A stretch of 64,000 nt of DNA. It comes from Escherichia coli. Its GTDB lineage: Bacteria > Pseudomonadota > Gammaproteobacteria > Enterobacterales > Enterobacteriaceae. The DNA lies in assembly GCF_009931435.1 (NCBI RefSeq), contig NZ_CP043414.1; one strand, given 5' to 3'. Positions within the stretch are counted from its first letter, which is position 1; each line of letters begins with the position of its first letter. The translations under genes and the position numbers were made by a program. Under the pieces are notes generated by a model. That model was not told the DNA's origin and searched no databases. It worked only from the letters and a program-made list of their open reading frames with translations. This document shows, one piece after another, positions 1,188 to 22,342 of the stretch.

Positions 1188-1487
1188 ATGACGTCATGGA
1201 TTGATAGTATGATTAAGGTCAGCGCGCTAGGCTCTCGTCATAGAAAAACATTCGACGATGTAATGACGGAGCCGCCAAAATCTGGAATTAAATGGGATGA
1301 TGTTGTTGCTCTCATTAAAGCGGTGGGTGGATCAATAAAAAATAACAACGGCTCCAGACGAAAATTTCAGATTGGAACGACCAAATTCAGCACACATGAG
1401 CCGCATCCAAAGAATGTGATGGATAAAGGCGCAGTAGCAGGTCTTAAGGAGTGGTTTGTTAACTGTGTAGGGGTAGATTATGAATAA
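1188..1487 (+). CDS. HicA-like toxin (mRNA interferase family); true start may be the internal ATG at 1263
   Basis: Small protein with GSRRKF...HEPHPKN...GAVAGLKEW pattern that parallels HicA (GSHHIY...PHPKKDL); overlaps the downstream gene by 8 nt as in toxin-antitoxin operons. Confidence 0.45.
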   Translation: MTSWIDSMIKVSALGSRHRKTFDDVMTEPPKSGIKWDDVVALIKAVGGSIKNNNGSRRKFQIGTTKFSTHEPHPKNVMDKGAVAGLKEWFVNCVGVDYE

Positions 1488-1836
1488 AGCATCGAACATT
1501 ATCACAATTAAAGGTCAACCAGCCGCAGTGACATTTGAAGCCGATATCAACGCATTTCGCGGCAAGTTCCTCAATGTAAACGGTTATTGTGACTTTGTAG
1601 CCACAAGTATTGAGGCATTATATCGTGAAGGCGAAAGCGCTCTGGATGAGTGGATGGCGGATTGTGAAGAGGACGGTATTGCCCCTTTTCGTGAAGAAGA
1701 AGAGCAAAAACGCCTGACGCTTCGTGTGCCGCATCACATCGATTCGCGGCTGACCATCGTCGCCAGACAACATTCCATTTCAAAAAACCAGCTCATTATT
1801 GATGTCTTAGAACGTGAGTTTTCAGCCCAGATGTAA
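1480..1836 (+). CDS. HicB-like antitoxin with C-terminal ribbon-helix-helix region
   Basis: 118 aa; C-terminus LRVPHHIDSRLTIVARQHSISKNQLIIDVLE looks like a CopG/RHH DNA-binding motif; translationally coupled to the upstream small gene. Confidence 0.5.
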   Translation: MNKASNIITIKGQPAAVTFEADINAFRGKFLNVNGYCDFVATSIEALYREGESALDEWMADCEEDGIAPFREEEEQKRLTLRVPHHIDSRLTIVARQHSISKNQLIIDVLEREFSAQM

Positions 1837-1858: not shown

Positions 1859-2608
1859 TTACAAAATCGTCTCTTCCGTCAAAATCCGCCGCGCGCCTAA
1901 AAAATGATCCTGCCAGAAAGGTTCAGCTAACCGACTTACCCGAATGGTTTCCCCGGTGCGCGGCGACTCGATAAACTGACCGTCTCCCAGATACACGCCC
2001 ATATGGTCGGCAATCTCGCGGCTGTGAATATGGAAAAACAGCAAATCTCCCCGGCGCAGGTCGTTATTTGCCACAATGGTTGCCCGACGGTAGTGATACA
2101 TCTCATTGGCCGTGCGCGGGAGTTTCGCCTCGAGGATCTTGTTGTAGGCATAAAAAACCAACCCGCTACAGTCGAAGCCTTTATCAGGCCGCGTACCTCC
2201 CCAGACGTAAGGCTTACCAAGCTGCTGCTCCAGACGGTGAATCGCTACTTCGGTGATGTTATGCAGATGGTCGCTGCTTAAGAAATGGTTGTTTTCCGCC
2301 AGCGCCTGCCAATGTTTATCGCTCAACTTCAACGGTGCAGGGAACCACTCAGGATGCTGTTTTATCTGCTCCCGGTTGTGCTGGCGCAGCGCCCTTCTGC
2401 TTTGTGCATCGCCTTCCACAATGTAGCTGGCCTGTTTTTTCAGATGCGCGTGGTATCGCTTTAGCAATCGCGTACGGTTTTGCATCCGCTGGCGGGCGGC
2501 GTAGCTGAAAGAGATATGTGATGCGGTGGCGCTGGCAAATGAAGAAAACGGCAAGCAAAGCAACAATAATCCCGACAACACAAAAGAGGGAATCGACGGC
2601 AAAGACAT
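1859..2608 (-). CDS. yafL: NlpC/P60-family lipoprotein peptidase YafL
   Basis: ORF 1859..2668; start moved to the internal Met at 2608 (249 aa, MSLPSIPSFV signal); C-terminal Cys/His region typical of NlpC/P60; conserved position. Confidence 0.8.
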   Translation of the reverse strand: MSLPSIPSFVLSGLLLLCLPFSSFASATASHISFSYAARQRMQNRTRLLKRYHAHLKKQASYIVEGDAQSRRALRQHNREQIKQHPEWFPAPLKLSDKHWQALAENNHFLSSDHLHNITEVAIHRLEQQLGKPYVWGGTRPDKGFDCSGLVFYAYNKILEAKLPRTANEMYHYRRATIVANNDLRRGDLLFFHIHSREIADHMGVYLGDGQFIESPRTGETIRVSRLAEPFWQDHFLGARRILTEETIL

Positions 2609-2785
2609 TCTCAATAATGGCTGGTCATGCATTGATGTTGCAGTGTATCCCGGCCCGTACCTGAACAAACTTAATAAACCATTATTATAAAATTAATAAA
2701 TATATTTCAGTTAATTATGTAAAAACATCCGTTTATTAAATTACTCATGGATTGTCGTTGTTGCTCATTTGAGCTACAATTCAAG

Positions 2786-2801
2786 CTGAATAAATATACA
2801 G
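2786..2801 (+). promoter_or_regulatory. Candidate LexA (SOS) box upstream of dinJ
   Basis: ctgaataaatatacag matches CTG-N10-CAG about 17 nt upstream of the dinJ start. Confidence 0.5.
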
Positions 2802-2817
2802 CACAGGAGATACCCCA

Positions 2818-3078
2818 ATGGCTGCTAACGCGTTTGTTCGCGCCCGAATCGATGAAGATCTGAAGAATCAGGCGGCGGACGTACTGGCCGGGATGGGGCT
2901 GACCATCTCTGACCTGGTTCGCATAACCCTCACAAAAGTCGCGCGTGAAAAGGCATTGCCGTTTGATTTACGCGAGCCTAATCAATTAACCATTCAATCA
3001 ATTAAAAACAGCGAAGCTGGCGTTGATGTTCATAAGGCCAAAGACGCCGATGATTTATTTGATCAATTAGGAATTTAA
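2818..3078 (+). CDS. dinJ: DinJ antitoxin
   Basis: 86 aa; MAANAFVRARIDEDLKNQA... matches DinJ; directly followed by yafQ. Confidence 0.9.
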   Translation: MAANAFVRARIDEDLKNQAADVLAGMGLTISDLVRITLTKVAREKALPFDLREPNQLTIQSIKNSEAGVDVHKAKDADDLFDQLGI

Positions 3079-3080
3079 AT

Positions 3081-3359
3081 ATGATTCAAAGGGATATTGA
3101 ATACTCGGGACAATTTTCAAAGGATGTAAAACTTGCACAAAAGCGTCATAATGATATGAATAAATTGAAATATCTTATGACGCTTCTTATCAATAATACT
3201 TTACCACTTCCAGCTGTTTATAAAGACCACCCGCTGCAAGGTTCATGGAAAGGTTATCGCGATGCTCATGTTGAACCGGACTGGATCCTGATTTACAAAC
3301 TTACCGATAAACTTTTACGATTTGAGAGAACTGGAACTCACGCGGCGCTATTTGGGTAA
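3081..3359 (+). CDS. yafQ: YafQ toxin (RelE-family mRNA interferase)
   Basis: 92 aa; starts 3 nt after the dinJ stop; sequence matches YafQ. Confidence 0.9.
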   Translation: MIQRDIEYSGQFSKDVKLAQKRHNDMNKLKYLMTLLINNTLPLPAVYKDHPLQGSWKGYRDAHVEPDWILIYKLTDKLLRFERTGTHAALFG

Positions 3360-3514
3360 AGCCCGCTTCCGATGAAATTTGTAAACCCTGCGCCGACAGG
3401 CTTGCGTAAAACTCTTTTGGTGATAATGTGAGCCTTCCAAATCCAGACTATTCCGATTTGGGATCCATTTTGCCGTCCTGGCGTGTGTAACCGTTTTATC
3501 AAGGAATAAGCAGT

Positions 3515-11546: not shown

Positions 11547-11951
11547 TCATTTCATTTTTTTAAAACATACGTTAATGCCATTCACACTTCCACATTCACC
11601 AAAAGCATCAAAATAAATTTCACATTTATTGTTGCCTTTCGAAATGATGCTAACCCCCCATCTTATATTGTTATATTTTTCTTTTCTGAAATACTTCATT
11701 TGCAATAAATCAATTATCTTACCCGCATAGAGATCGCTAAGTTCATTCACCACCACTTTATATCTGTATATTTCATTAAGACCTTCCTTGCTAAGCGGAA
11801 CTAACGTGGTAACATACGATGGAAGATTAACTACCTCTATCGTTTTCACGCTATCTATTCCACACAATTCATTCACTCGCCCCATCCCCAATACCGAACC
11901 AGAAAATAGAGACAATAAAACCATCAAATATTTCATCATAAAAAACCTCAC
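11547..11951 (-). CDS. Putative Rhs immunity protein (RhsI) for the rhs-A C-terminal toxin; has a signal peptide
   Basis: 134 aa, AT-rich, starts at the rhs-A stop codon; N-terminus MKYLMVLLSLFSGSVLG looks like a Sec signal peptide; position is that of an immunity gene. Confidence 0.55.
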   Translation of the reverse strand: MRFFMMKYLMVLLSLFSGSVLGMGRVNELCGIDSVKTIEVVNLPSYVTTLVPLSKEGLNEIYRYKVVVNELSDLYAGKIIDLLQMKYFRKEKYNNIRWGVSIISKGNNKCEIYFDAFGECGSVNGINVCFKKMK

Positions 11952-14900
11952 TATTCTGGCGTACCCGTTATTGTCATCGTCTGCAACGGTCCATCCACCC
12001 GATAAAAAGGCAGTCCACTATGAGCTCCTCTGACACACTCATCTAAAGTTTTCGCCGCACGCGATTCAATTATTGTAATAACCCTTGCCTCTTCTTTATT
12101 ATCATATTTCTTATCCGTCCGACTTAAAAGAGCCATGAAATTTTCTTTATCAAGAAGGTAATACTGTGCATGTGCAAACTCATGCCCCAAACCTAATGCA
12201 GGCGATTGTGATTTCGAGTTTAATTCAGTTGAACAAAATAAAGACGCTCTACTATTCCAATATATCGTCATATTATTCGAATTAAATCTACCATTGGTTC
12301 CTTCAATATACTCTATATTTATAGTTTCTTCAGAGCTTGATAAAAAATCTATAGCATCTTTCATTCGTGAATCTTTTTCTAAATACTTAACAGCCTGATT
12401 AAAATCACTTGGATCACCATTAACCTCGAATTTTAAACCCAAAGAATCTATAAACCGAACAGGGTTTAATGGATATTTATACAGATTCCATTCACCTCTT
12501 AGCCCGATTGGATCCTGCGTGATATACCTCCCCTGCAACGGGTCATAGTACCGGTGACGGTTGTAGTACAGCCCCGACTCCTCATCATACTGCTGCCCTG
12601 GCAGACGGTACGGCTGTTGCAGGTGCTCCGGGTTTTCCTCTCCCAGCAGGTTTCCCCACTCGTCATACTCCCCGCGCCACGCCGTTTCCCCTTCCGGGCT
12701 GATAAGCGCCTGCGGCAGCCCACGGTGGTCACAGTGGTAAAGATGAAGTTTCCTCTCCGGGATGTATTCTTCCTCCATCTGGTTGTTCATCTGTTCCGCC
12801 GTCAGCCCGCACTGCGCAAGCCATGCTTCACTCTCCGCACTCACCGCACCCGCGCGCAGTTCCCGCTCCAGCCTCCCCAGCATCACCGACAGCTCCGCCG
12901 GGAGCGTCACACCCGTGTCCTCCTGCAACACCTCCGCCAGGCTACGGTGCCGCGCCTTCGCCTGTTCGCCATTCTCTGTTTCGATTCTCAGGAGCGGCGT
13001 GAAGCTTCCCGGCTGATAAATCGTCTGGATACGTGTGGTGCCGGTCTGTACCGTCGTCAGCCTGTCACCGTCCCACCCGTACCATGTCTCCTCCGGTTTA
13101 CGCGACAGCGACATCCATCCCGTCAGGTCACGCTCCCGCCGCCACACCCGTTTTCCCGTCCTGCGGCCCAGCGGGTCGTAAAGGTAGCGGCTCTCCACCT
13201 GCGGCTCGCCGTGCTGTATCCGCGTGTAGAACACCAGACGGTGCTGGCTGTCGTAATGGTAGTGGTGGGTGCGCTCGTCGTGCATCCGTATCACCCCTTC
13301 CGGGATACGGTCCGTCTTCTCCGCCAGCCTGCCGTATTCATCGTGGCGGTAGACATAGTGCGCATCTTCCGCGATGCGGTTATCCGGCCACGCCGTGAAG
13401 GTGCTGTCCGGGTGCAGTTCCGGGTCCGGCAGCCGGTTTCCTGCCGGGTCCGTCGCATACGGGATATCAATGTCCAGGTTCGCTGCCGTGGTGTGGACGC
13501 CCGTCAGCCTTCCCGTGTCGCTGTAACGGTACTCCCGGCTCTCCTGCGGGCCGCTGATACGCACCAGTTGCCCGTTATCATTCCACGTATACTCACGGTC
13601 AAGCTGCGGAAGGTTCAGGTGCCTGCTCCGGAGCTGGCCTGTGAGGGTGTATGTGCTGGTCAGTTCATATGCGGCATTACTGCCTGCCATGCTGCCGAAG
13701 CTGCGCACCGTCTCACGGTGCAGCCTGTCCCGCGTGTACTCGACCAGCGGCGTTCCGCCCAGCTTCATCCCCGCAAGATAACCGCTGCCATACGTCAGCC
13801 ACTCCACCGGCGGCAGACCGTCCGGCTCCTGACGGGTCGCCAGCCCCTGTTCGCTGTACGCGTGCCCCGTCTCATGCTCCCACAGCATCTCCCCCGTCTC
13901 CGGGTTCTCCACCGTCTGCCGTTCGCCCGTCAGGCGGCCCTTATCGTCATAGCCGTAGTGGACCGCCACACGGTGGCCTTCACTGGTATGGCTGAGGGTG
14001 GTTAACCACCCGTGCTCATCATACTGCCACTGCTCTGCCGCTTCGCCGTTCACCGTCCGGTGCGTGATGCGGTCCGACGCATCGTAGTGCCAGAGGGTGA
14101 TAAGTCCCTCGTCTTCACTGCGGACAAGCTGCCCTGTGGCGCTGTACCGGTAACGCTGTGTCCGTCCGTCAAAGCCGCGCTGCTCCGTCAGGCGGTCCAC
14201 CGGGTCATACAGGAACGTGGACTGGCTGCCGTTCTCATTAGTCAGCGTGGTGATGCGCCCGGCGGCGTCATACCCCATGCTGCGCGTCAGACCGCCCTGC
14301 GTGGTGCTGATAGCTTTACCCCACGCATCATACTGTGTCTCACTGCGGCTGCCGTTCGGGGCAATGATAGCGGTGAGGTCGCCTGCGGCGCTGTACTCAT
14401 AACGGGTTTCACGCCCCTGCACATCCTTCTGACTGACCAGTTGACCACGCGGGTTATAACTGCTGTAAGTGCTGATGCCTTCTTCCCGGTGAACCGCCGT
14501 CCTCTGCCCGTACCGGTCGTACTCATACCGTGTCGTGTACCCCGAGCAGTCCGTGAAGGCCAGCAGTTGACCGTAGCGGCTCCATGCCATCTGTTTTGTA
14601 CTGCCCGTCGCATCCTGTATCCCTGTCGGCAGCTCACTCGCCGGGTCATCATAGCTGTACCGCGTCGTCTCACCGCTGCGCGAGGTCTCCGCCGCCAGCC
14701 TTCCCTTCTCATCATACTCCCGGCTGCTGCGAAGCCCGTCCGGGTACGTCACTGACGTCACCTGCCGCTGGCTGTTGTAGCCATACCGCACCGTCCTGCC
14801 GTCCGGCCCCGTCACCGCCGTCACCGCGCCCGACGCCATATGCAGGCTGTACTCCGTCCGCCGCCCCGCCGCATCCGTCTGCGCCTTCAGCCTCCCCGCC

Positions 14901-16207
14901 GCATCATACTCGCTGCGGGTGATGCTCCCGTCCGCATGCTCCTTCTTCACCACCCGCTTCAGGCCACCCTCGCCTTCCGTGTACAGCACCTCCCGCCTGT
15001 TCAGGCTGTCCGTGATGGTCACACGGTCCTGCCCGTACTCAAAGCGGTAGGCCAGCCCCTCCGGGTTGACCTGCTCCGTCACCCGACCGGTATCATCATA
15101 CCGGTAGCGGCTCTCCGGCCTCCCCGCATAATGGTGCGCCACCATCCGCCCGGCGTGCTCCGCATCATAAGTAAACCCGCGCACCTGCGTCCCGCTGCGG
15201 TCATACACCGCCAGCAACTCACCGCTGGCCGTGTACGTGTAGCGCGCCAGCGGCGCAGTCGGCTGTTCATCCGGGTATGCCGGGTCGTGTGTCAGCCACA
15301 CCGCCTCCAGCCGGATACCGTTATCGGCACCGTATTCTGTACCGGCGGGCAGCGTGTCGGGGAAAACCTGAGAAGAGGAAACAGAACGGGGACCGGCAGG
15401 GGAAGATAAAGACGTGGCGCGCTGTTTACGGCAGGCTTCCGCCCGCTGCGCCTGCGTGCTCAGCAACAGGTGAAAACGACGGCCCGCACCGTCCGTCCCC
15501 CCCGTCACCGCGCCCGCCACGTCACCCTCCGCTGCCCGGTGAAAGGCCAGCGTCCGACCAAAGCCATCCACCACGCCCGTCAGCACCCGGTATGCGGGCG
15601 GTTCCGGCGGCAGCACCTCGTCCGCCCCCGGCACCCGCTCCGGCCAGCTGAGTATCCACCACGGCCCCTGAAGGCTGTTTGTCGCCAGGTACACATGCGG
15701 ACTCAGGCGAACATCTTCCGGCAGCACCTGCCAGAGCGCGCTTAGCGGCTGCGAACTGTGCTGCTCCGCCCCCCCGCCCCGCGCCAGCCAGAACGACTCG
15801 CTGCGGCTGTAGCTTATCTCGCCGGGAAACAGCGGCTCAAAGTGAATGCTCCTGCCGCCGTTGTCGTTGAGTATCAGTTCCCGCTCATGAACCTGTAAGC
15901 GGATATCGAAGGGCGCTTTCCAGCCGGGGCCGAACACGCCCACCGGCGCGGGCGTCCTGGTCCGGTAACTGCTGTAAGCGCGGGAAAGAATAAACGGCAG
16001 CGGGCCGGGCAGTGCCAGGTCCGTCTCGCCCGGCAGCACCTTCGCACCCAGCACCGGGTTCACCGGGTTAGCATAGGTAATCCCTCCCGGACACACCGAG
16101 CAGGCCACTCCCGTCGGCGCACCTATCAGCACCCCTGCTGAACCCTGCACAATATCCAGTCCCTTGCGGGTCATGTCGCCCTGCCGCGCCGCCGGTTTTC
16201 CGCTCAT
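11951..16207 (-). CDS. Rhs-family polymorphic toxin (distal copy) with PAAR-like N-terminus, YD-repeat shell and a C-terminal domain carrying an HExxH motif
   Basis: 1418 aa; N-terminal [16 protein letters not shown]...VACSVCPGG, many YD repeats, DPIGL demarcation motif, then a unique roughly 160 aa tail containing [10 protein letters not shown]. Confidence 0.9.
12502..16207 (-). repeat. Rhs core repeat, copy A (near-identical to 18628..22342; apparently perfect over about 12502..14060)
   Basis: Identical antisense ORFs at a fixed 6126 bp offset (12554..14005 and 18680..20131, etc.) and direct line-by-line comparison. Confidence 0.85.
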
Positions 16208-17627: not shown

Positions 17628-18074
17628 TCAATACTTAGTGCAGCGTGTCTTAAGGAAATTAGAAGCCACAACATCAATCTTTTCTTTTAAGACTAAATCA
17701 TCCACATAATCACAAGACAAATAGAAGTCATTACCATCGGCCATTATAAATATCCTCATAGGTAAAGATTTATCATTATCAACATGAGCATTCGTAATAA
17801 TCCAATAATAAGGAAATCTAACATTTTTTGTAGGAATACCCAATAAATCATAAGCTTTATTATTATATTCTATCGCTCCCTTAACAAACGTTGGTTTGAC
17901 CTCCTTACCAATAATGCGATGCGACGTATATTCTTCCTTCTCAGCAAACGATTGCATTAATGCCCATATAGGTTTATTTGCCAGCTCACCGTGATGAAAA
18001 ATCCGATAAAAATACACTCCTAAAAAAAATATTAAGCCTAAGCAAACCAATACCATGAGGCAGTTCTTACTCAT
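17628..18074 (-). CDS. Putative Rhs immunity protein (RhsI) for the rhs-B C-terminal toxin; N-terminal membrane anchor
   Basis: 148 aa, AT-rich, overlaps the rhs-B stop by 4 nt; N-terminal hydrophobic helix [18 protein letters not shown]. Confidence 0.55.
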
Positions 18075-21000
18075 TGATTAAAATCCGTAAAATTAGAAGG
18101 AACAGGGCCATTCTCAGGTGAAAACAATGGAGATGTATTTGATACTCGTGATGCTATCATTTCTACAGTAGCAGGAAGATACATTGGCATTCCATTATCA
18201 CCACCTAGCGGATCAGTTGAAGTTAAAATTTCATTTATTGAATCTACTGAGACTCCCGCATGCAACATTGCCTCAATAACCATTGTTGCACAATTGTGCG
18301 TAAAATAGTTATAGTCACTTCTATCTACTTTATATTTTTCATCAATGTACTTAATCATTGCTTTCTCTTGTTCTGGCGTGGTTTTAATTGTATATATCCT
18401 CGTGCTTCTACGTTGTGCTTGTTCAGTTAAATAAGCTATGACACTCCCTCCACGTGGGGTAGCGGTTCCATAGCTATATACCCCTTTTCCAGTAAATGCC
18501 ATCGCAGAATGCCCTAATGGATTACCACTCGTGGGTCCCCCAGCAAAAATAAGGGTATCCAAACCAAGTGGATCTATATTTATAGTTGGATTCCACGGAT
18601 ATTTATAAAGATTCCATCCCCCCGCAAGCCCGATTGGATCCTGCGTGATATACCTCCCCTGCAACGGGTCATAGTACCGGTGACGGTTGTAGTACAGCCC
18701 CGACTCCTCATCATACTGCTGCCCTGGCAGACGGTACGGCTGTTGCAGGTGCTCCGGGTTTTCCTCTCCCAGCAGGTTTCCCCACTCGTCATACTCCCCG
18801 CGCCACGCCGTTTCCCCTTCCGGGCTGATAAGCGCCTGCGGCAGCCCACGGTGGTCACAGTGGTAAAGATGAAGTTTCCTCTCCGGGATGTATTCTTCCT
18901 CCATCTGGTTGTTCATCTGTTCCGCCGTCAGCCCGCACTGCGCAAGCCATGCTTCACTCTCCGCACTCACCGCACCCGCGCGCAGTTCCCGCTCCAGCCT
19001 CCCCAGCATCACCGACAGCTCCGCCGGGAGCGTCACACCCGTGTCCTCCTGCAACACCTCCGCCAGGCTACGGTGCCGCGCCTTCGCCTGTTCGCCATTC
19101 TCTGTTTCGATTCTCAGGAGCGGCGTGAAGCTTCCCGGCTGATAAATCGTCTGGATACGTGTGGTGCCGGTCTGTACCGTCGTCAGCCTGTCACCGTCCC
19201 ACCCGTACCATGTCTCCTCCGGTTTACGCGACAGCGACATCCATCCCGTCAGGTCACGCTCCCGCCGCCACACCCGTTTTCCCGTCCTGCGGCCCAGCGG
19301 GTCGTAAAGGTAGCGGCTCTCCACCTGCGGCTCGCCGTGCTGTATCCGCGTGTAGAACACCAGACGGTGCTGGCTGTCGTAATGGTAGTGGTGGGTGCGC
19401 TCGTCGTGCATCCGTATCACCCCTTCCGGGATACGGTCCGTCTTCTCCGCCAGCCTGCCGTATTCATCGTGGCGGTAGACATAGTGCGCATCTTCCGCGA
19501 TGCGGTTATCCGGCCACGCCGTGAAGGTGCTGTCCGGGTGCAGTTCCGGGTCCGGCAGCCGGTTTCCTGCCGGGTCCGTCGCATACGGGATATCAATGTC
19601 CAGGTTCGCTGCCGTGGTGTGGACGCCCGTCAGCCTTCCCGTGTCGCTGTAACGGTACTCCCGGCTCTCCTGCGGGCCGCTGATACGCACCAGTTGCCCG
19701 TTATCATTCCACGTATACTCACGGTCAAGCTGCGGAAGGTTCAGGTGCCTGCTCCGGAGCTGGCCTGTGAGGGTGTATGTGCTGGTCAGTTCATATGCGG
19801 CATTACTGCCTGCCATGCTGCCGAAGCTGCGCACCGTCTCACGGTGCAGCCTGTCCCGCGTGTACTCGACCAGCGGCGTTCCGCCCAGCTTCATCCCCGC
19901 AAGATAACCGCTGCCATACGTCAGCCACTCCACCGGCGGCAGACCGTCCGGCTCCTGACGGGTCGCCAGCCCCTGTTCGCTGTACGCGTGCCCCGTCTCA
20001 TGCTCCCACAGCATCTCCCCCGTCTCCGGGTTCTCCACCGTCTGCCGTTCGCCCGTCAGGCGGCCCTTATCGTCATAGCCGTAGTGGACCGCCACACGGT
20101 GGCCTTCACTGGTATGGCTGAGGGTGGTTAACCACCCGTGCTCATCATACTGCCACTGCTCTGCCGCTTCGCCGTTCACCGTCCGGTGCGTGATGCGGTC
20201 CGACGTATCGTAGTGCCAGAGGGTGATAAGCCCCTCGTCTTCACTGCGGACAAGCTGCCCTGCGGCGCTGTACCGGTAACGCTGTGTCCTGCCATCAAAG
20301 CCGCGCTGCTCCGTCAGGCGGTCCAGCACATCATAGGTAAACTCACTCCGGCTGCCGTTCTCGTTGGTCAGCACGGTGATGCGCCCGGCGGCGTCATACC
20401 CCATGCTGCGCGTCAGCCCGCCCTGCGTGGTGCTGACGGCCTTTCCCCACGCATCATACTGTGTCTCACTGCGGCTGCCGTCCGGGGCAATGATAGCGGT
20501 GAGGTCGCCTGCGGCGCTGTACTCATAACGGGTTTCACGCCCCTGCACATCCTTCTGACTGACCAGTTGACCACGCGGGTTATAACTGCTGTAAGTGCTG
20601 ATGCCTTCTTCCCGGTGAACCGCCGTCCTCTGCCCGTACCGGTCGTACTCATACCGTGTCGTGTACCCCGAGCAGTCCGTGAAGGCCAGCAGTTGACCGT
20701 AGCGGCTCCATGCCATCTGTTTTGTACTGCCCGTCGCATCCTGTATCCCTGTCGGCAGCTCACTCGCCGGGTCATCATAGCTGTACCGCGTCGTCTCACC
20801 GCTGCGTGAGGTCTCCGCCGCCAGCCTTCCCTTCTCGTCATACTCCCGGCTGCTGCGCAGCCCGTCCGGGTACGTCACTGACGTCACCTGCCGCTGGCTG
20901 TTGTAGCCATACCGCACCGTCCTGCCGTCCGGCCCCGTCACCGCCGTCACCGCGCCCGACGCCATATGTATCCGGTACTCCGTCCGCCGTCCCGCCGCAT

Positions 21001-22342
21001 CCGTCTGCGCCTTCAGCCTCCCCGCCTCATCATACCCGCTGCGGGTGATGCTCCCGTCCGCATGCTCCTTCTTCACCACACGCTTCAGGCCACCCTCGCC
21101 CTCCGTGTACAGCACCTCCCGCCTGTTCAGGCTGTCCGTGATGGTCACACGGTCCTGCCCGTACTCAAAGCGGTAGTCCAGTCCCTCCGGGTTGACCTGC
21201 TCCGTCACCCGCCCGGTATCATCATACCGGTAGCGGCTCTCCGGCCTCCCCGCATAATGGTGCGCCACCATCCGCCCGGCGTGCTCCGCATCATAAGTAA
21301 ACCCGCGCACCTGCGTCCCGCTGCGGTCATACACCGCCAGCAACTCACCGCTGGCCGTGTACGTGTAGCGCGCCAGCGGCGCAGTCGGCTGTTCATCCGG
21401 GTATGCCGGGTCGTGTGTCAGCCACACCGCCTCCAGACGGATACCGTTATCGGCACCGTATTCTGTACCGGCGGGCAGCGTGTCGGGGAAAACCTGAGAA
21501 GAGGAAACAGAACGGGGACCGGCAGGGGAAGATAAAGACGTGGCGCGCTGTTTACGGAAGGCTTCCGCCCGCTGCGCCTGCGTGCTCAGCAACAGGTGAA
21601 AACGACGGCCCGCACCGTCCGTCACCCCCGTCACCGCGCCCGCCACGTCACCCTCTGCCACCCGGTGGAAAGTCATCGTCCGACCAAAGCCATCCACCAC
21701 GCCCGTCAGTACCCGGTATGCGGGTGGCTCCGGCGGCAGCACCTCGTCCACTTCCGGCACCCGCTCCGGCCAGCCGAGCACCAGCCACTGCCCGGTTGTG
21801 CTGACAGCCATCATATAGGTGTGTGGACTCAGGCGGACCGCTTCCGGCAGCGCCCGCCAGAACCGCGCAAGCGGGTGTCCTTTATGCTGTTTCAGCACCC
21901 CGCCCCGCGCCAGCCAGAACGACTCGCTGCGGCTGTAGCTTATCTCGCCGGGAAACAGGGGTTCAAAGTGGATGCTCCGGCCACCGCTGTCGTTAAGTAT
22001 CAGTTCACGCTCACAAATCTGTAAGCGGATGTCGGAGGGGGCTTTCCAGCCGGGGCCGAATATCCCCACCGGGGCTGGCGTCTTCGTCCGGTAACTGCTG
22101 TAGGCGCGGAAAAGGATGAACGGCAACGGGCCGGATAGTGCCAGGTCGGTTTCAGCAGGCAGTACCTTCGCTCCCAGCAGCGGGTTTACCGGATTGCCAT
22201 ATTTCGGCGTGGCTTCCCCTGTGGGACACACCGAGCAGGCAACCCCCGTCGGCGCACCTATCAGCACCCCTGCTGAACCCTGCACAATATCCAGTCCCTT
22301 GCGGGTCATGTCACCCTGCCGCGCCGCCGGTTTTCCGCCCAT
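18071..22342 (-). CDS. Rhs-family polymorphic toxin (vgrG-proximal copy) with PAAR-like N-terminus and a C-terminal domain with a His...Cys pattern (possible permuted papain-like hydrolase)
   Basis: 1423 aa; same architecture as the other rhs; after DPIGL the tail contains GHSAMAF...YSYG...[12 protein letters not shown]. Confidence 0.9.
18628..22342 (-). repeat. Rhs core repeat, copy B (near-identical to 12502..16207)
   Basis: See copy A; N-terminal 250 codons are more diverged, the central and 3' core is almost identical. Confidence 0.85.

What the first reader, a model, noticed from the sequence alone, without database searches (positions are those of the whole stretch)
2786..2801. SOS box upstream of dinJ-yafQ
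A CTG-N10-CAG element (ctgaataaatatacag) sits just upstream of dinJ, consistent with LexA control of this toxin-antitoxin operon. It lies in the intergenic region shared with divergent yafL.
Basis: partly seen in the sequence, partly recalled or inferred. Interest (0 to 1): 0.25.

Follow-up and report, generated by a model that had tools for sequence, protein, structure and literature searches.

The report
Known LexA box at dinJ-yafQ promoter

Summary
In detail: CTGAATAAATATACAG lies at 2786-2801, 16 nt before the dinJ start codon, in the 209-bp yafL/dinJ intergenic region of an E. coli chromosome. The bare CTG-N10-CAG pattern is common (25 in the window, 16 expected). The full 20-mer AGCTGAATAAATATACAGCA is a good LexA operator. 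Scored with a matrix built from 23 K-12 operators checked in sequence, its heterology index is 7.1-7.9. That beats 13 of the 23, is the best in the window, and about 0.007 such sites are expected per 64 kb. It covers the predicted transcription start, 5 bp downstream of the 20-bp DinJ operator palindrome that overlaps the -10. Among about 45 dinJ homologues the palindrome is near-universal. The LexA box occurs in only one clade (Escherichia, rtcBA-linked Salmonella copies, one unidentified lineage). It always sits in the same register, with LexA contact positions conserved while the spacer has diverged at the synonymous rate. The site is already known: RegulonDB lists it and LexA binds it in vitro. 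Reports give 2-3-fold derepression without LexA and no ciprofloxacin induction in E. coli. Best model: two adjacent repressors, with DinJ autorepression damping the SOS signal. Already known; low interest.

The parts
2784..2803 (.). LexA operator (SOS box), 20-mer AGCTGAATAAATATACAGCA; CTG-N10-CAG core at 2786-2801
   Evidence: Sequence. HI 7.13/7.94, best in window, 0.007 expected per 64 kb. Identical in K-12 (L001 2518-2537). Same-register boxes in Salmonella and L059. High-information positions conserved.
2759..2778 (.). DinJ / DinJ-YafQ operator: inverted repeat TGTTGCTCA-TT-TGAGCTACA (9-bp hemisites, 2-bp spacer) overlapping the -10
   Evidence: Conserved as GTAGCTCA-NN-TGAGCTAC in nearly all of about 45 dinJ homologues, from Escherichia to distant MAGs. 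Matches the published description of the E. coli operator: 20-bp inverted repeat, 9-bp hemisites, 2-bp spacer, overlapping -10 (PMC9592637 citing Ruangprasert 2014).
2752..2780 (+). Predicted sigma-70 promoter of dinJ-yafQ: -35 TTGTCG (2752-2757), 17-nt spacer, -10 TACAAT (2775-2780); inferred start near 2787
   Evidence: Consensus scan. The -10 hexamer is conserved with the palindrome across homologues. The start site was not mapped here, so its position is inferred.
2805..2809 (+). Shine-Dalgarno AGGAG, 8 nt before the dinJ ATG
   Evidence: Sequence. CAGGAGA is invariant in the three box-bearing lineages.
2818..3078 (+). dinJ, RelB/DinJ-family ribbon-helix-helix antitoxin and autorepressor (86 aa)
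   Evidence: ORF. Pfam PF04221, E 6.6e-34. PDB 4Q2U/4ML0, E about 1e-50. RefSeq annotation of near-identical loci.
3081..3359 (+). yafQ, ribosome-dependent mRNA interferase toxin (92 aa)
   Evidence: ORF. Pfam PF15738, E 6.8e-32. RefSeq annotation.
1859..2608 (-). yafL, divergent NlpC/P60 gene; context only, probably not controlled by the box
   Evidence: ORF. Pfam PF00877. K-12 annotation. The box lies 178 bp upstream of the yafL start and more than 70 bp beyond the only minus-strand promoter-like site.

Best explanation
The element is the LexA operator of the dinJ-yafQ promoter. A LexA dimer bound at 2784-2803 covers the predicted transcription start (about +1 to +15) and hinders RNA polymerase. 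Five base pairs upstream, the antitoxin DinJ (alone or as DinJ-YafQ) binds the 20-bp palindrome over the -10 hexamer. The promoter is therefore held by two independent repressors. When DNA damage leads to LexA self-cleavage, only one of them is removed. Any rise in transcription also makes more DinJ, which re-represses the promoter. The net SOS response is therefore small (about 2-3-fold) unless DinJ is depleted at the same time. Shown here: the sequence, its matrix score, its position next to the promoter and the palindrome, its clade-restricted distribution and its LexA-shaped conservation. Taken from the literature: LexA binding, DinJ binding, the 2-3-fold derepression and the lack of ciprofloxacin induction. 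Inferred: the start site, steric blocking, and feedback damping as the reason for weak induction.
For: The 20-mer scores within the upper half of verified K-12 operators and is far beyond chance. It lies immediately downstream of a -35/-10 pair with 17-nt spacing, the usual place for functional SOS boxes (PMC2814082). Three lineages whose dinJ fourfold-degenerate sites differ at 0.48-0.56 keep the box in exactly the same register. High-information LexA positions differ at 0.08-0.17 and low-information positions at 0.50-0.62; 10/12 versus 2/8 columns are invariant, Fisher p = 0.015. In E. coli, at least 3,217 of 3,327 records carry the same 20-mer or a variant closer to consensus. No sampled variant damages the box, although 54 of 60 possible substitutions would. 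Literature: LexA binds the dinJ promoter; dinJ-lacZ is 2-3-fold up without LexA; RegulonDB lists LexA and DinJ-YafQ as regulators; DinJ and DinJ-YafQ bind the inverted repeat over the -10; the Salmonella homologue with the same-register box is 7.8-fold induced by nalidixic acid.
Against: Damage induction in E. coli is reported as absent or insignificant, and dinJ is not in a recent table of classical SOS genes. The majority E. coli allele has A instead of the consensus T at position 6, which costs 3.1 HI units. The Salmonella induction may include read-through from the upstream rtcBA operon: there is no terminator-like site in the 108-nt gap. The start site and simultaneous occupancy by both repressors were not tested here. 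The feedback-damping step is my inference. The primary papers (Ruangprasert 2014, Fernandez de Henestrosa 2000, Wade 2005) could not be read.
Confidence: 0.8

Rival explanations
1. Vestigial site: the box once conferred SOS control and still binds LexA in vitro, but in E. coli it no longer has any regulatory consequence and is drifting.
For: No ciprofloxacin induction. The statement that induction has not been seen. The weakening A at position 6 in about 90% of E. coli copies. The whole locus is dispensable: it is present in 3,341 of 5,426 complete genomes.
Against: 2-3-fold derepression in a lexA deletion strain. No sampled E. coli variant damages the box, and two move it towards consensus. 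LexA-shaped conservation across three lineages that are saturated at synonymous sites.
Confidence: 0.12
2. The palindrome is a second operator for DinJ itself rather than, or as well as, for LexA.
For: It is a palindrome adjacent to the known DinJ operator. A 2025 review loosely says that DinJ binds a region 'containing the LexA box'.
Against: More than 30 DinJ homologues (43-86% identical) keep the GCTCA-NN-TGAGC palindrome but have nothing resembling the CTG-N10-CAG box, HI >= 17.8. The two sequences are unrelated. The conservation profile follows LexA's information content.
Confidence: 0.04
3. The inverted repeat acts as an RNA hairpin at the 5' end of the dinJ mRNA, affecting stability or translation, and not as a DNA operator.
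For: The box lies in the predicted 5' UTR and is self-complementary.
Against: Predicted folds of the 5' UTRs are no more stable than shuffles: z from -0.9 to +0.6 in the box-bearing copies and -1.0 to +0.5 in the two boxless controls. The box arms are not paired in the minimum-energy fold in E. coli or Salmonella. Spacer changes are not compensatory.
Confidence: 0.02
4. The box controls the divergent yafL gene rather than dinJ, or it is a chance match in AT-rich DNA.
For: The intergenic region is shared. The region is 27% GC.
Against: The box is 178 bp from the yafL start and more than 70 bp upstream of the only minus-strand promoter-like site. It travels with dinJ into a different chromosomal context in Salmonella (rtcA-malT) where yafL is absent. 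The chance expectation is 0.0002 per shuffle of this intergenic region.
Confidence: 0.02

Closest known systems
The dinJ SOS box of E. coli K-12 (LexA site at the dinJ-yafQ promoter, listed in RegulonDB)
   Same: Identical 20-mer, and identical promoter, palindrome and spacing (K-12 L001 2518-2537). It is the same element in another E. coli strain.
   Different: Nothing in the element itself. In the 207-bp alignment the differences from K-12 lie in the distal intergenic region plus a single base between the -35 hexamer and the DinJ palindrome.
Salmonella Typhimurium dinJ (STM14_4236) SOS box
   Same: Same architecture: DinJ palindrome, 5-bp linker, 20-mer LexA box, 14 nt to the ATG. Similar HI: 8.27 published, 8.69 with my matrix on closely related Salmonella copies.
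   Different: 6 of 20 positions differ. Salmonella has the consensus CTGT/ACAG cores but a poorer spacer. The operon sits between rtcA and malT, not between yafL and dpaA. It is reported as 7.8-fold induced by nalidixic acid, whereas E. coli shows little or no induction. I did not confirm that the fetched loci are strain 14028 itself.
[quoted passage not shown]
   Same: Toxin-antitoxin loci with a LexA box at the promoter. yafNO is likewise both LexA-controlled and autoregulated by its TA complex.
   Different: Those loci are clearly induced: tisAB about 1,000-fold and symE about 100-fold by ciprofloxacin, and yafNO by mitomycin C. dinJ-yafQ is not.
Canonical strong SOS operators (umuDC, sulA, recA, recN)
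   Same: Same CTG-N10-CAG palindrome class and a position overlapping the core promoter.
   Different: They have a lower HI (2-6), and in the usual model LexA is their main repressor (my knowledge, not tested here). The dinJ box is intermediate (7-8) and shares the promoter with a second, autoregulatory repressor.

Membership tests
Gammaproteobacterial LexA operator (SOS box) | Palindromic CTG-N10-CAG core | tested here: met
   CTGAATAAATATACAG at 2786-2801.
Gammaproteobacterial LexA operator (SOS box) | Full 20-mer scores within the range of experimentally established operators (heterology index / PWM) | tested here: met
   HI 7.13 / 7.94 with a matrix from 23 K-12 operators, each verified in genome sequence. 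It scores better than 13 of the 23 under leave-one-out, and 0.007 such sites are expected per 64 kb.
Gammaproteobacterial LexA operator (SOS box) | Located so as to overlap the core promoter or transcription start of the regulated gene | tested here: met
   The box starts 4 bp after the -10 TACAAT (2775-2780) of a 9/12 consensus promoter. The start site itself is predicted, not mapped.
Gammaproteobacterial LexA operator (SOS box) | Conserved in orthologous promoters with a LexA-like conservation profile | tested here: met
   Same register in Escherichia, Salmonella (rtc-linked) and L059. High-information positions are 10/12 invariant versus 2/8 low-information positions, with synonymous divergence around 0.5. 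The box is restricted to one clade of the DinJ family.
Gammaproteobacterial LexA operator (SOS box) | LexA protein binds the site | not testable with these tools
   Reported in the literature: 'LexA binds the dinJ promoter' (PMC4996492 citing Ruangprasert 2014). The primary paper is not held.
E. coli SOS regulon (functional membership) | Transcription rises when LexA is absent | not testable with these tools
   Literature: a chromosomal dinJ-lacZ fusion is 2-3-fold higher in delta-lexA delta-sulA (PMC6015884).
E. coli SOS regulon (functional membership) | RecA/LexA-dependent induction by DNA damage | not testable with these tools
   The literature is mostly negative for E. coli: not significantly activated by ciprofloxacin, 'has not been seen', and not in the 2024 classical SOS table. 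It is positive for the Salmonella homologue at 7.8-fold, with a read-through caveat.
Type II toxin-antitoxin promoter autoregulated by an RHH antitoxin | Inverted-repeat operator overlapping core promoter elements, upstream of an antitoxin-toxin gene pair | tested here: met
   TGTTGCTCA-TT-TGAGCTACA at 2759-2778 overlaps the -10. It is conserved across about 45 homologues. The dinJ (RelB family) and yafQ gene pair is confirmed. The published operator description matches.

The most novel reading that the evidence does not exclude
The LexA box is actively maintained as one half of a two-key gate. dinJ-yafQ would be strongly derepressed only when LexA is cleaved and DinJ is depleted at the same time, so YafQ would be released only under combined DNA damage and proteolytic or translational stress. 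The box would be a single evolutionary gain in one enterobacterial clade of an otherwise LexA-independent TA family. Most E. coli would carry a secondarily weakened allele (A at position 6), and about 6% would keep the stronger CTGT allele, giving natural variation in SOS coupling.
Probability: 0.3. Interest if true: 0.35.

Novelty: already known. Interest (0 to 1): 0.15.

Why it matters
As an annotation it matters little: the site has long been in the literature and in RegulonDB. Its modest value lies in the long-standing puzzle of why a good, LexA-binding SOS box gives almost no SOS induction in E. coli. The comparison here shows that the box is not an accident. It is a clade-specific addition to an ancestral DinJ-only promoter, and it is kept under LexA-shaped selection in Escherichia and Salmonella. 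That argues for a real, probably conditional, function. It also points to a simple experiment: measure LexA dependence with DinJ autorepression disabled, and compare the natural A and T alleles.

Tried and rejected
(1) The bare CTG-N10-CAG count is not informative: 25 found against 16 expected. I replaced it with full 20-mer scoring. (2) I looked for an open-access table of operator sequences and HI values that includes dinJ and found none. The supplement of the 2024 RNA-seq paper is not held. I therefore rebuilt the operator set from K-12 sequence. (3) The primary papers (Ruangprasert 2014, Wade 2005, Armalyte 2012, Hu 2012) are not held. (4) My first comparative conclusion, that the box occurs only in Escherichia, was wrong. 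The species scan uses exact peptide words and missed the Salmonella copies. A table entry in PMC8072944 prompted a wider search that overturned it. (5) The RNA hairpin reading is not supported. (6) The published overlapping DnaA box has a best match of 2 mismatches at 2785-2793; that quality occurs once per 61 bp in the window, so sequence alone gives it no support. (7) The organism of L059 could not be identified: only short 82-88% matches to Yersinia, Salmonella and Edwardsiella plasmids in its first 145 bases. (8) The generic inverted-repeat finder missed both short palindromes at its settings. I found them by eye and by alignment.

Full report
OBSERVATION. dinJ (86 aa) starts at 2818 and yafQ (92 aa) at 3081. 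A divergent NlpC/P60 gene, yafL, ends its coding region at 2608 on the minus strand if the K-12 start is used. Pfam confirms RelB/DinJ, YafQ_toxin and NLPC_P60, and DinJ matches PDB 4Q2U/4ML0 at E about 1e-50. An 841-bp stretch around the site matches 3,341 of 5,426 complete E. coli genomes, mostly at 95-99% identity, annotated yafL / dinJ / yafQ. The window is therefore an E. coli chromosome, in the reverse orientation relative to K-12.

IS IT MORE THAN CHANCE? The six-base core pattern alone is not: 25 matches in the window against 16.1 +/- 4.2 in dinucleotide shuffles. I recalled 23 published E. coli LexA operators from memory. I fetched the promoter regions of 19 SOS genes from the K-12 record and confirmed that every 20-mer occurs exactly, upstream of its gene. 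From these I built a Berg-von Hippel heterology index (HI).

The dinJ 20-mer AGCTGAATAAATATACAGCA (2784-2803) scores 7.13 with the as-listed matrix and 7.94 with the symmetrised one. From memory, and not verified here, the published value is about 7.1. With the training operators scored leave-one-out, the site ranks 11th of 24, ahead of lexA, uvrA, ruvA, uvrD, dinB, dinG and polB. It is the best site in the window. In 201 kb scanned, every site at or below its score is a known operator or this site. Shuffles give 0.007 such sites per 64 kb and 0.0002 per shuffle of the AT-rich intergenic region. The K-12 site is identical.

ANATOMY. A promoter-like pair lies immediately upstream: -35 TTGTCG (2752-2757), 17 nt, then -10 TACAAT (2775-2780). 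The inferred start is near 2787, so the box spans about +1 to +15. That is the usual position for working SOS boxes (PMC2814082). Between the -35 and across the -10 lies TGTTGCTCA-TT-TGAGCTACA (2759-2778). This matches the published DinJ/DinJ-YafQ operator: a 20-bp inverted repeat with 9-bp hemisites and a 2-bp spacer, overlapping the -10 (PMC9592637 citing Ruangprasert 2014). Five base pairs separate the two operators, and their centres are 25 bp apart. AGGAG at 2805-2809 is the ribosome-binding site.

COMPARATIVE EVIDENCE. A scan of one genome per species with DinJ returned 30 loci. Only the Escherichia copy had a LexA-like site. All the others scored HI >= 17.8, no better than the rest of the same loci. 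An alignment showed that what is conserved, from Escherichia to Yersinia, Xenorhabdus, Photorhabdus, Pectobacterium, Ferrovum and several MAGs, is the palindrome GTAGCTCA-NN-TGAGCTAC fused to the -10.

My provisional conclusion that the box is specific to Escherichia was wrong. A table in PMC8072944 lists a Salmonella dinJ with one SOS box 14 bp from the ATG, HI 8.27, induced 7.8-fold by nalidixic acid. The species scan uses exact peptide words and had missed it.

A protein search and 12 context look-ups gave more copies. Salmonella dinJ-yafQ located between rtcBA and malT carries AACTGTATAGAGACACAGTA (HI 8.69). A contig of unknown origin (L059) carries GACTGTATGAACATACAGTA (HI 5.47). In both, the 20-mer ends exactly 14 nt before the ATG and begins 5 nt after the palindrome, as in E. 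coli. Copies in Klebsiella, Pseudocitrobacter, Y. enterocolitica, an IS66-flanked E. coli copy and three other Salmonella copies (two beside Bro-N genes, one in S. diarizonae) have no box. Some of these sit next to phage-type genes: the Bro-N/Arc neighbours in Salmonella and tail-fibre genes in Y. enterocolitica.

In a neighbour-joining tree of 35 DinJ proteins, the box-bearing copies form one clade. Its only boxless member is the Pseudocitrobacter copy, an orphan dinJ without yafQ. The tree rests on 86 residues and has no support values, so a single gain is likely but not proven.

SELECTION. The 59 nt before the ATG align without gaps in the three box-bearing lineages. Fourfold-degenerate sites in dinJ differ at 0.48-0.56 between them, and DNA upstream of the palindrome is unalignable (0.65-0.72). 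Within the 20-mer, the low-information positions (1, 2, 9-12, 19, 20) differ at 0.50-0.62. The high-information positions (3-8, 13-18) differ at only 0.08-0.17. That is 10/12 against 2/8 invariant columns (Fisher p = 0.015). Against all other non-palindrome, non-SD columns it is 10/12 against 4/20 (p = 0.0007). The conservation follows LexA's recognition profile, which is the signature of selection for LexA binding.

Within E. coli, 3,327 records hold the 40-mer around the box. 2,709 match the window allele, although this count can include copies with a change in the last one or two flanking bases. 298 carry an O157-type allele whose changes lie outside the 20-mer. 210 carry CTGT in place of CTGA, which lowers HI to 4.87. 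Another sampled variant also moves towards consensus (HI 7.0). Of the 60 possible single substitutions, 54 would weaken the site, and none of the sampled variants does. Salmonella and L059 have T at position 6. The majority E. coli A, which costs 3.1 HI units, is therefore probably a derived, weakening change.

WHAT IS KNOWN. The site is not new. Held papers state several things.
- The dinJ-yafQ regulatory region contains a LexA consensus (PMC6529426).
- LexA binds the dinJ promoter (PMC4996492 citing Ruangprasert 2014).
- RegulonDB lists dinJ and yafQ under LexA, and DinJ-YafQ and LexA as regulators of dinJ (PMC4576408; PMC7567609).
- A chromosomal dinJ-lacZ fusion is 2-3-fold higher in delta-lexA delta-sulA (PMC6015884).

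Against classical SOS behaviour, three reports stand out.
- Induction after DNA damage 'has not been seen' (PMC4996492).
- dinJ is not in the classical SOS table of a 2024 RNA-seq study (PMC11228462).

From memory only: the gene was named damage-inducible J because this box was found in a sequence search (Lewis et al. 1994).

MECHANISM. Best supported: two adjacent repressors act on one promoter. LexA sits at the start site and DinJ or DinJ-YafQ over the -10. The comparison shows the DinJ palindrome is ancestral and near-universal, and that the LexA box was added in one enterobacterial clade. My inference for the weak induction is negative feedback. Removing LexA raises transcription, which raises DinJ, which restores repression. 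This fits the small steady-state effect of a lexA deletion. It also fits the absence of induction of a reporter in cells that still make DinJ. It predicts strong LexA dependence only when DinJ repression is disabled, and this has not been tested.

The stronger induction reported in Salmonella may reflect the box. It may also reflect read-through from rtcBA, which lies 108 nt upstream in the same orientation with no terminator-like site between. The title of PMC9879122 links that operon to the SOS response, but I could not read the paper.

RIVALS. The vestigial-site reading fits the expression data, but not the conservation or the lexA-deletion effect. A second DinJ operator is excluded by its absence from more than 30 DinJ homologues that keep the real palindrome. 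An RNA hairpin is not supported: z-scores run from -0.9 to +0.6 in the box-bearing copies and from -1.0 to +0.5 in the two boxless controls, and the box arms are unpaired in the minimum-energy fold in E. coli and Salmonella. Control of yafL is unlikely given the 178-bp distance, and because the box travels with dinJ to a locus without yafL in Salmonella. A published overlapping DnaA box corresponds at best to a 2-mismatch match at 2785-2793. Matches of that quality occur once per 61 bp, so sequence alone gives it no support.

VERDICT. The element is already known. The only additions here are its clade-restricted distribution, its LexA-shaped conservation between Escherichia and Salmonella, and the A/T polymorphism at position 6. 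Interest is low.

Noticed in passing
window 1188-1836: A HicA-like (1188-1487, Pfam HicA_toxin) and HicB-like (1480-1836, Pfam HicB) gene pair lies beyond yafL, on the side away from dinJ. K-12 has the REP-associated transposase gene rayT in this position, so a second toxin-antitoxin pair sits next to dinJ-yafQ in this strain.
   Followed up: partly
window 11951-16207 and about 18000-22300: A 1,418-aa Rhs-family ORF on the minus strand (RHS repeats, DUF6531, RHS core). Direct repeats spaced 6,126 bp apart (12462-12761 / 18588-18887 at 96%; 15696-15995 / 21822-22121 at 83%) suggest two tandem rhs-type units.
   Followed up: partly
window 12467-12486: The second-best LexA-like 20-mer in the window, TAATGGATATTTATACAGAT (HI 9.2), lies inside the Rhs coding region at the start of the repeated segment. 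The copy 6,126 bp away is not among the window's 12 best-scoring sites. It is probably not an operator.
   Followed up: no
whole dinJ-yafQ locus (window 2560-3400): The locus is accessory in E. coli: it is present in 3,341 of 5,426 complete genomes. A few extra copies lie on records labelled as plasmids, for example the XL1-Blue F'.
   Followed up: no
window 2789 (position 6 of the 20-mer); L049: There is a natural polymorphism in the box. About 6% of E. coli records (210 of 3,327) have CTGT instead of CTGA, which improves the predicted LexA site from HI 7.9 to 4.9. Salmonella and L059 also have T, so the common E. coli allele looks like a derived weakening.
   Followed up: partly
L058 (E. coli GCA_046507445.1) 1100-1800: A divergent E. 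coli copy keeps the LexA box intact, but its DinJ palindrome and -10 are mutated (…CATTTAAGCTCAATT…). Its DinJ is only 81% identical and sits on a long branch, and its yafQ ORF is 108 aa. It may be a decaying or rewired copy.
   Followed up: no
L050, L060, L062 (Salmonella) 1-1800: In Salmonella, dinJ-yafQ lies directly downstream of the RNA-repair genes rtcB-rtcA, with a 108-nt gap, the same strand and no terminator-like site, and upstream of malT. Read-through from rtcBA could add to the reported damage induction of dinJ there.
   Followed up: partly
L057 (Pseudocitrobacter corydidari) 1201-1461: An orphan dinJ with no yafQ downstream. It is the only boxless member of the box-bearing clade, so loss of the toxin and absence of the LexA box coincide in this one case.
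   Followed up: no
window 2785-2793 (minus strand): The DnaA box said in PMC6015884 to overlap the dinJ LexA box corresponds at best to TTATTCAGC, with 2 mismatches to TTWTNCACA. Matches of that quality occur once per 61 bp in this window.
   Followed up: yes
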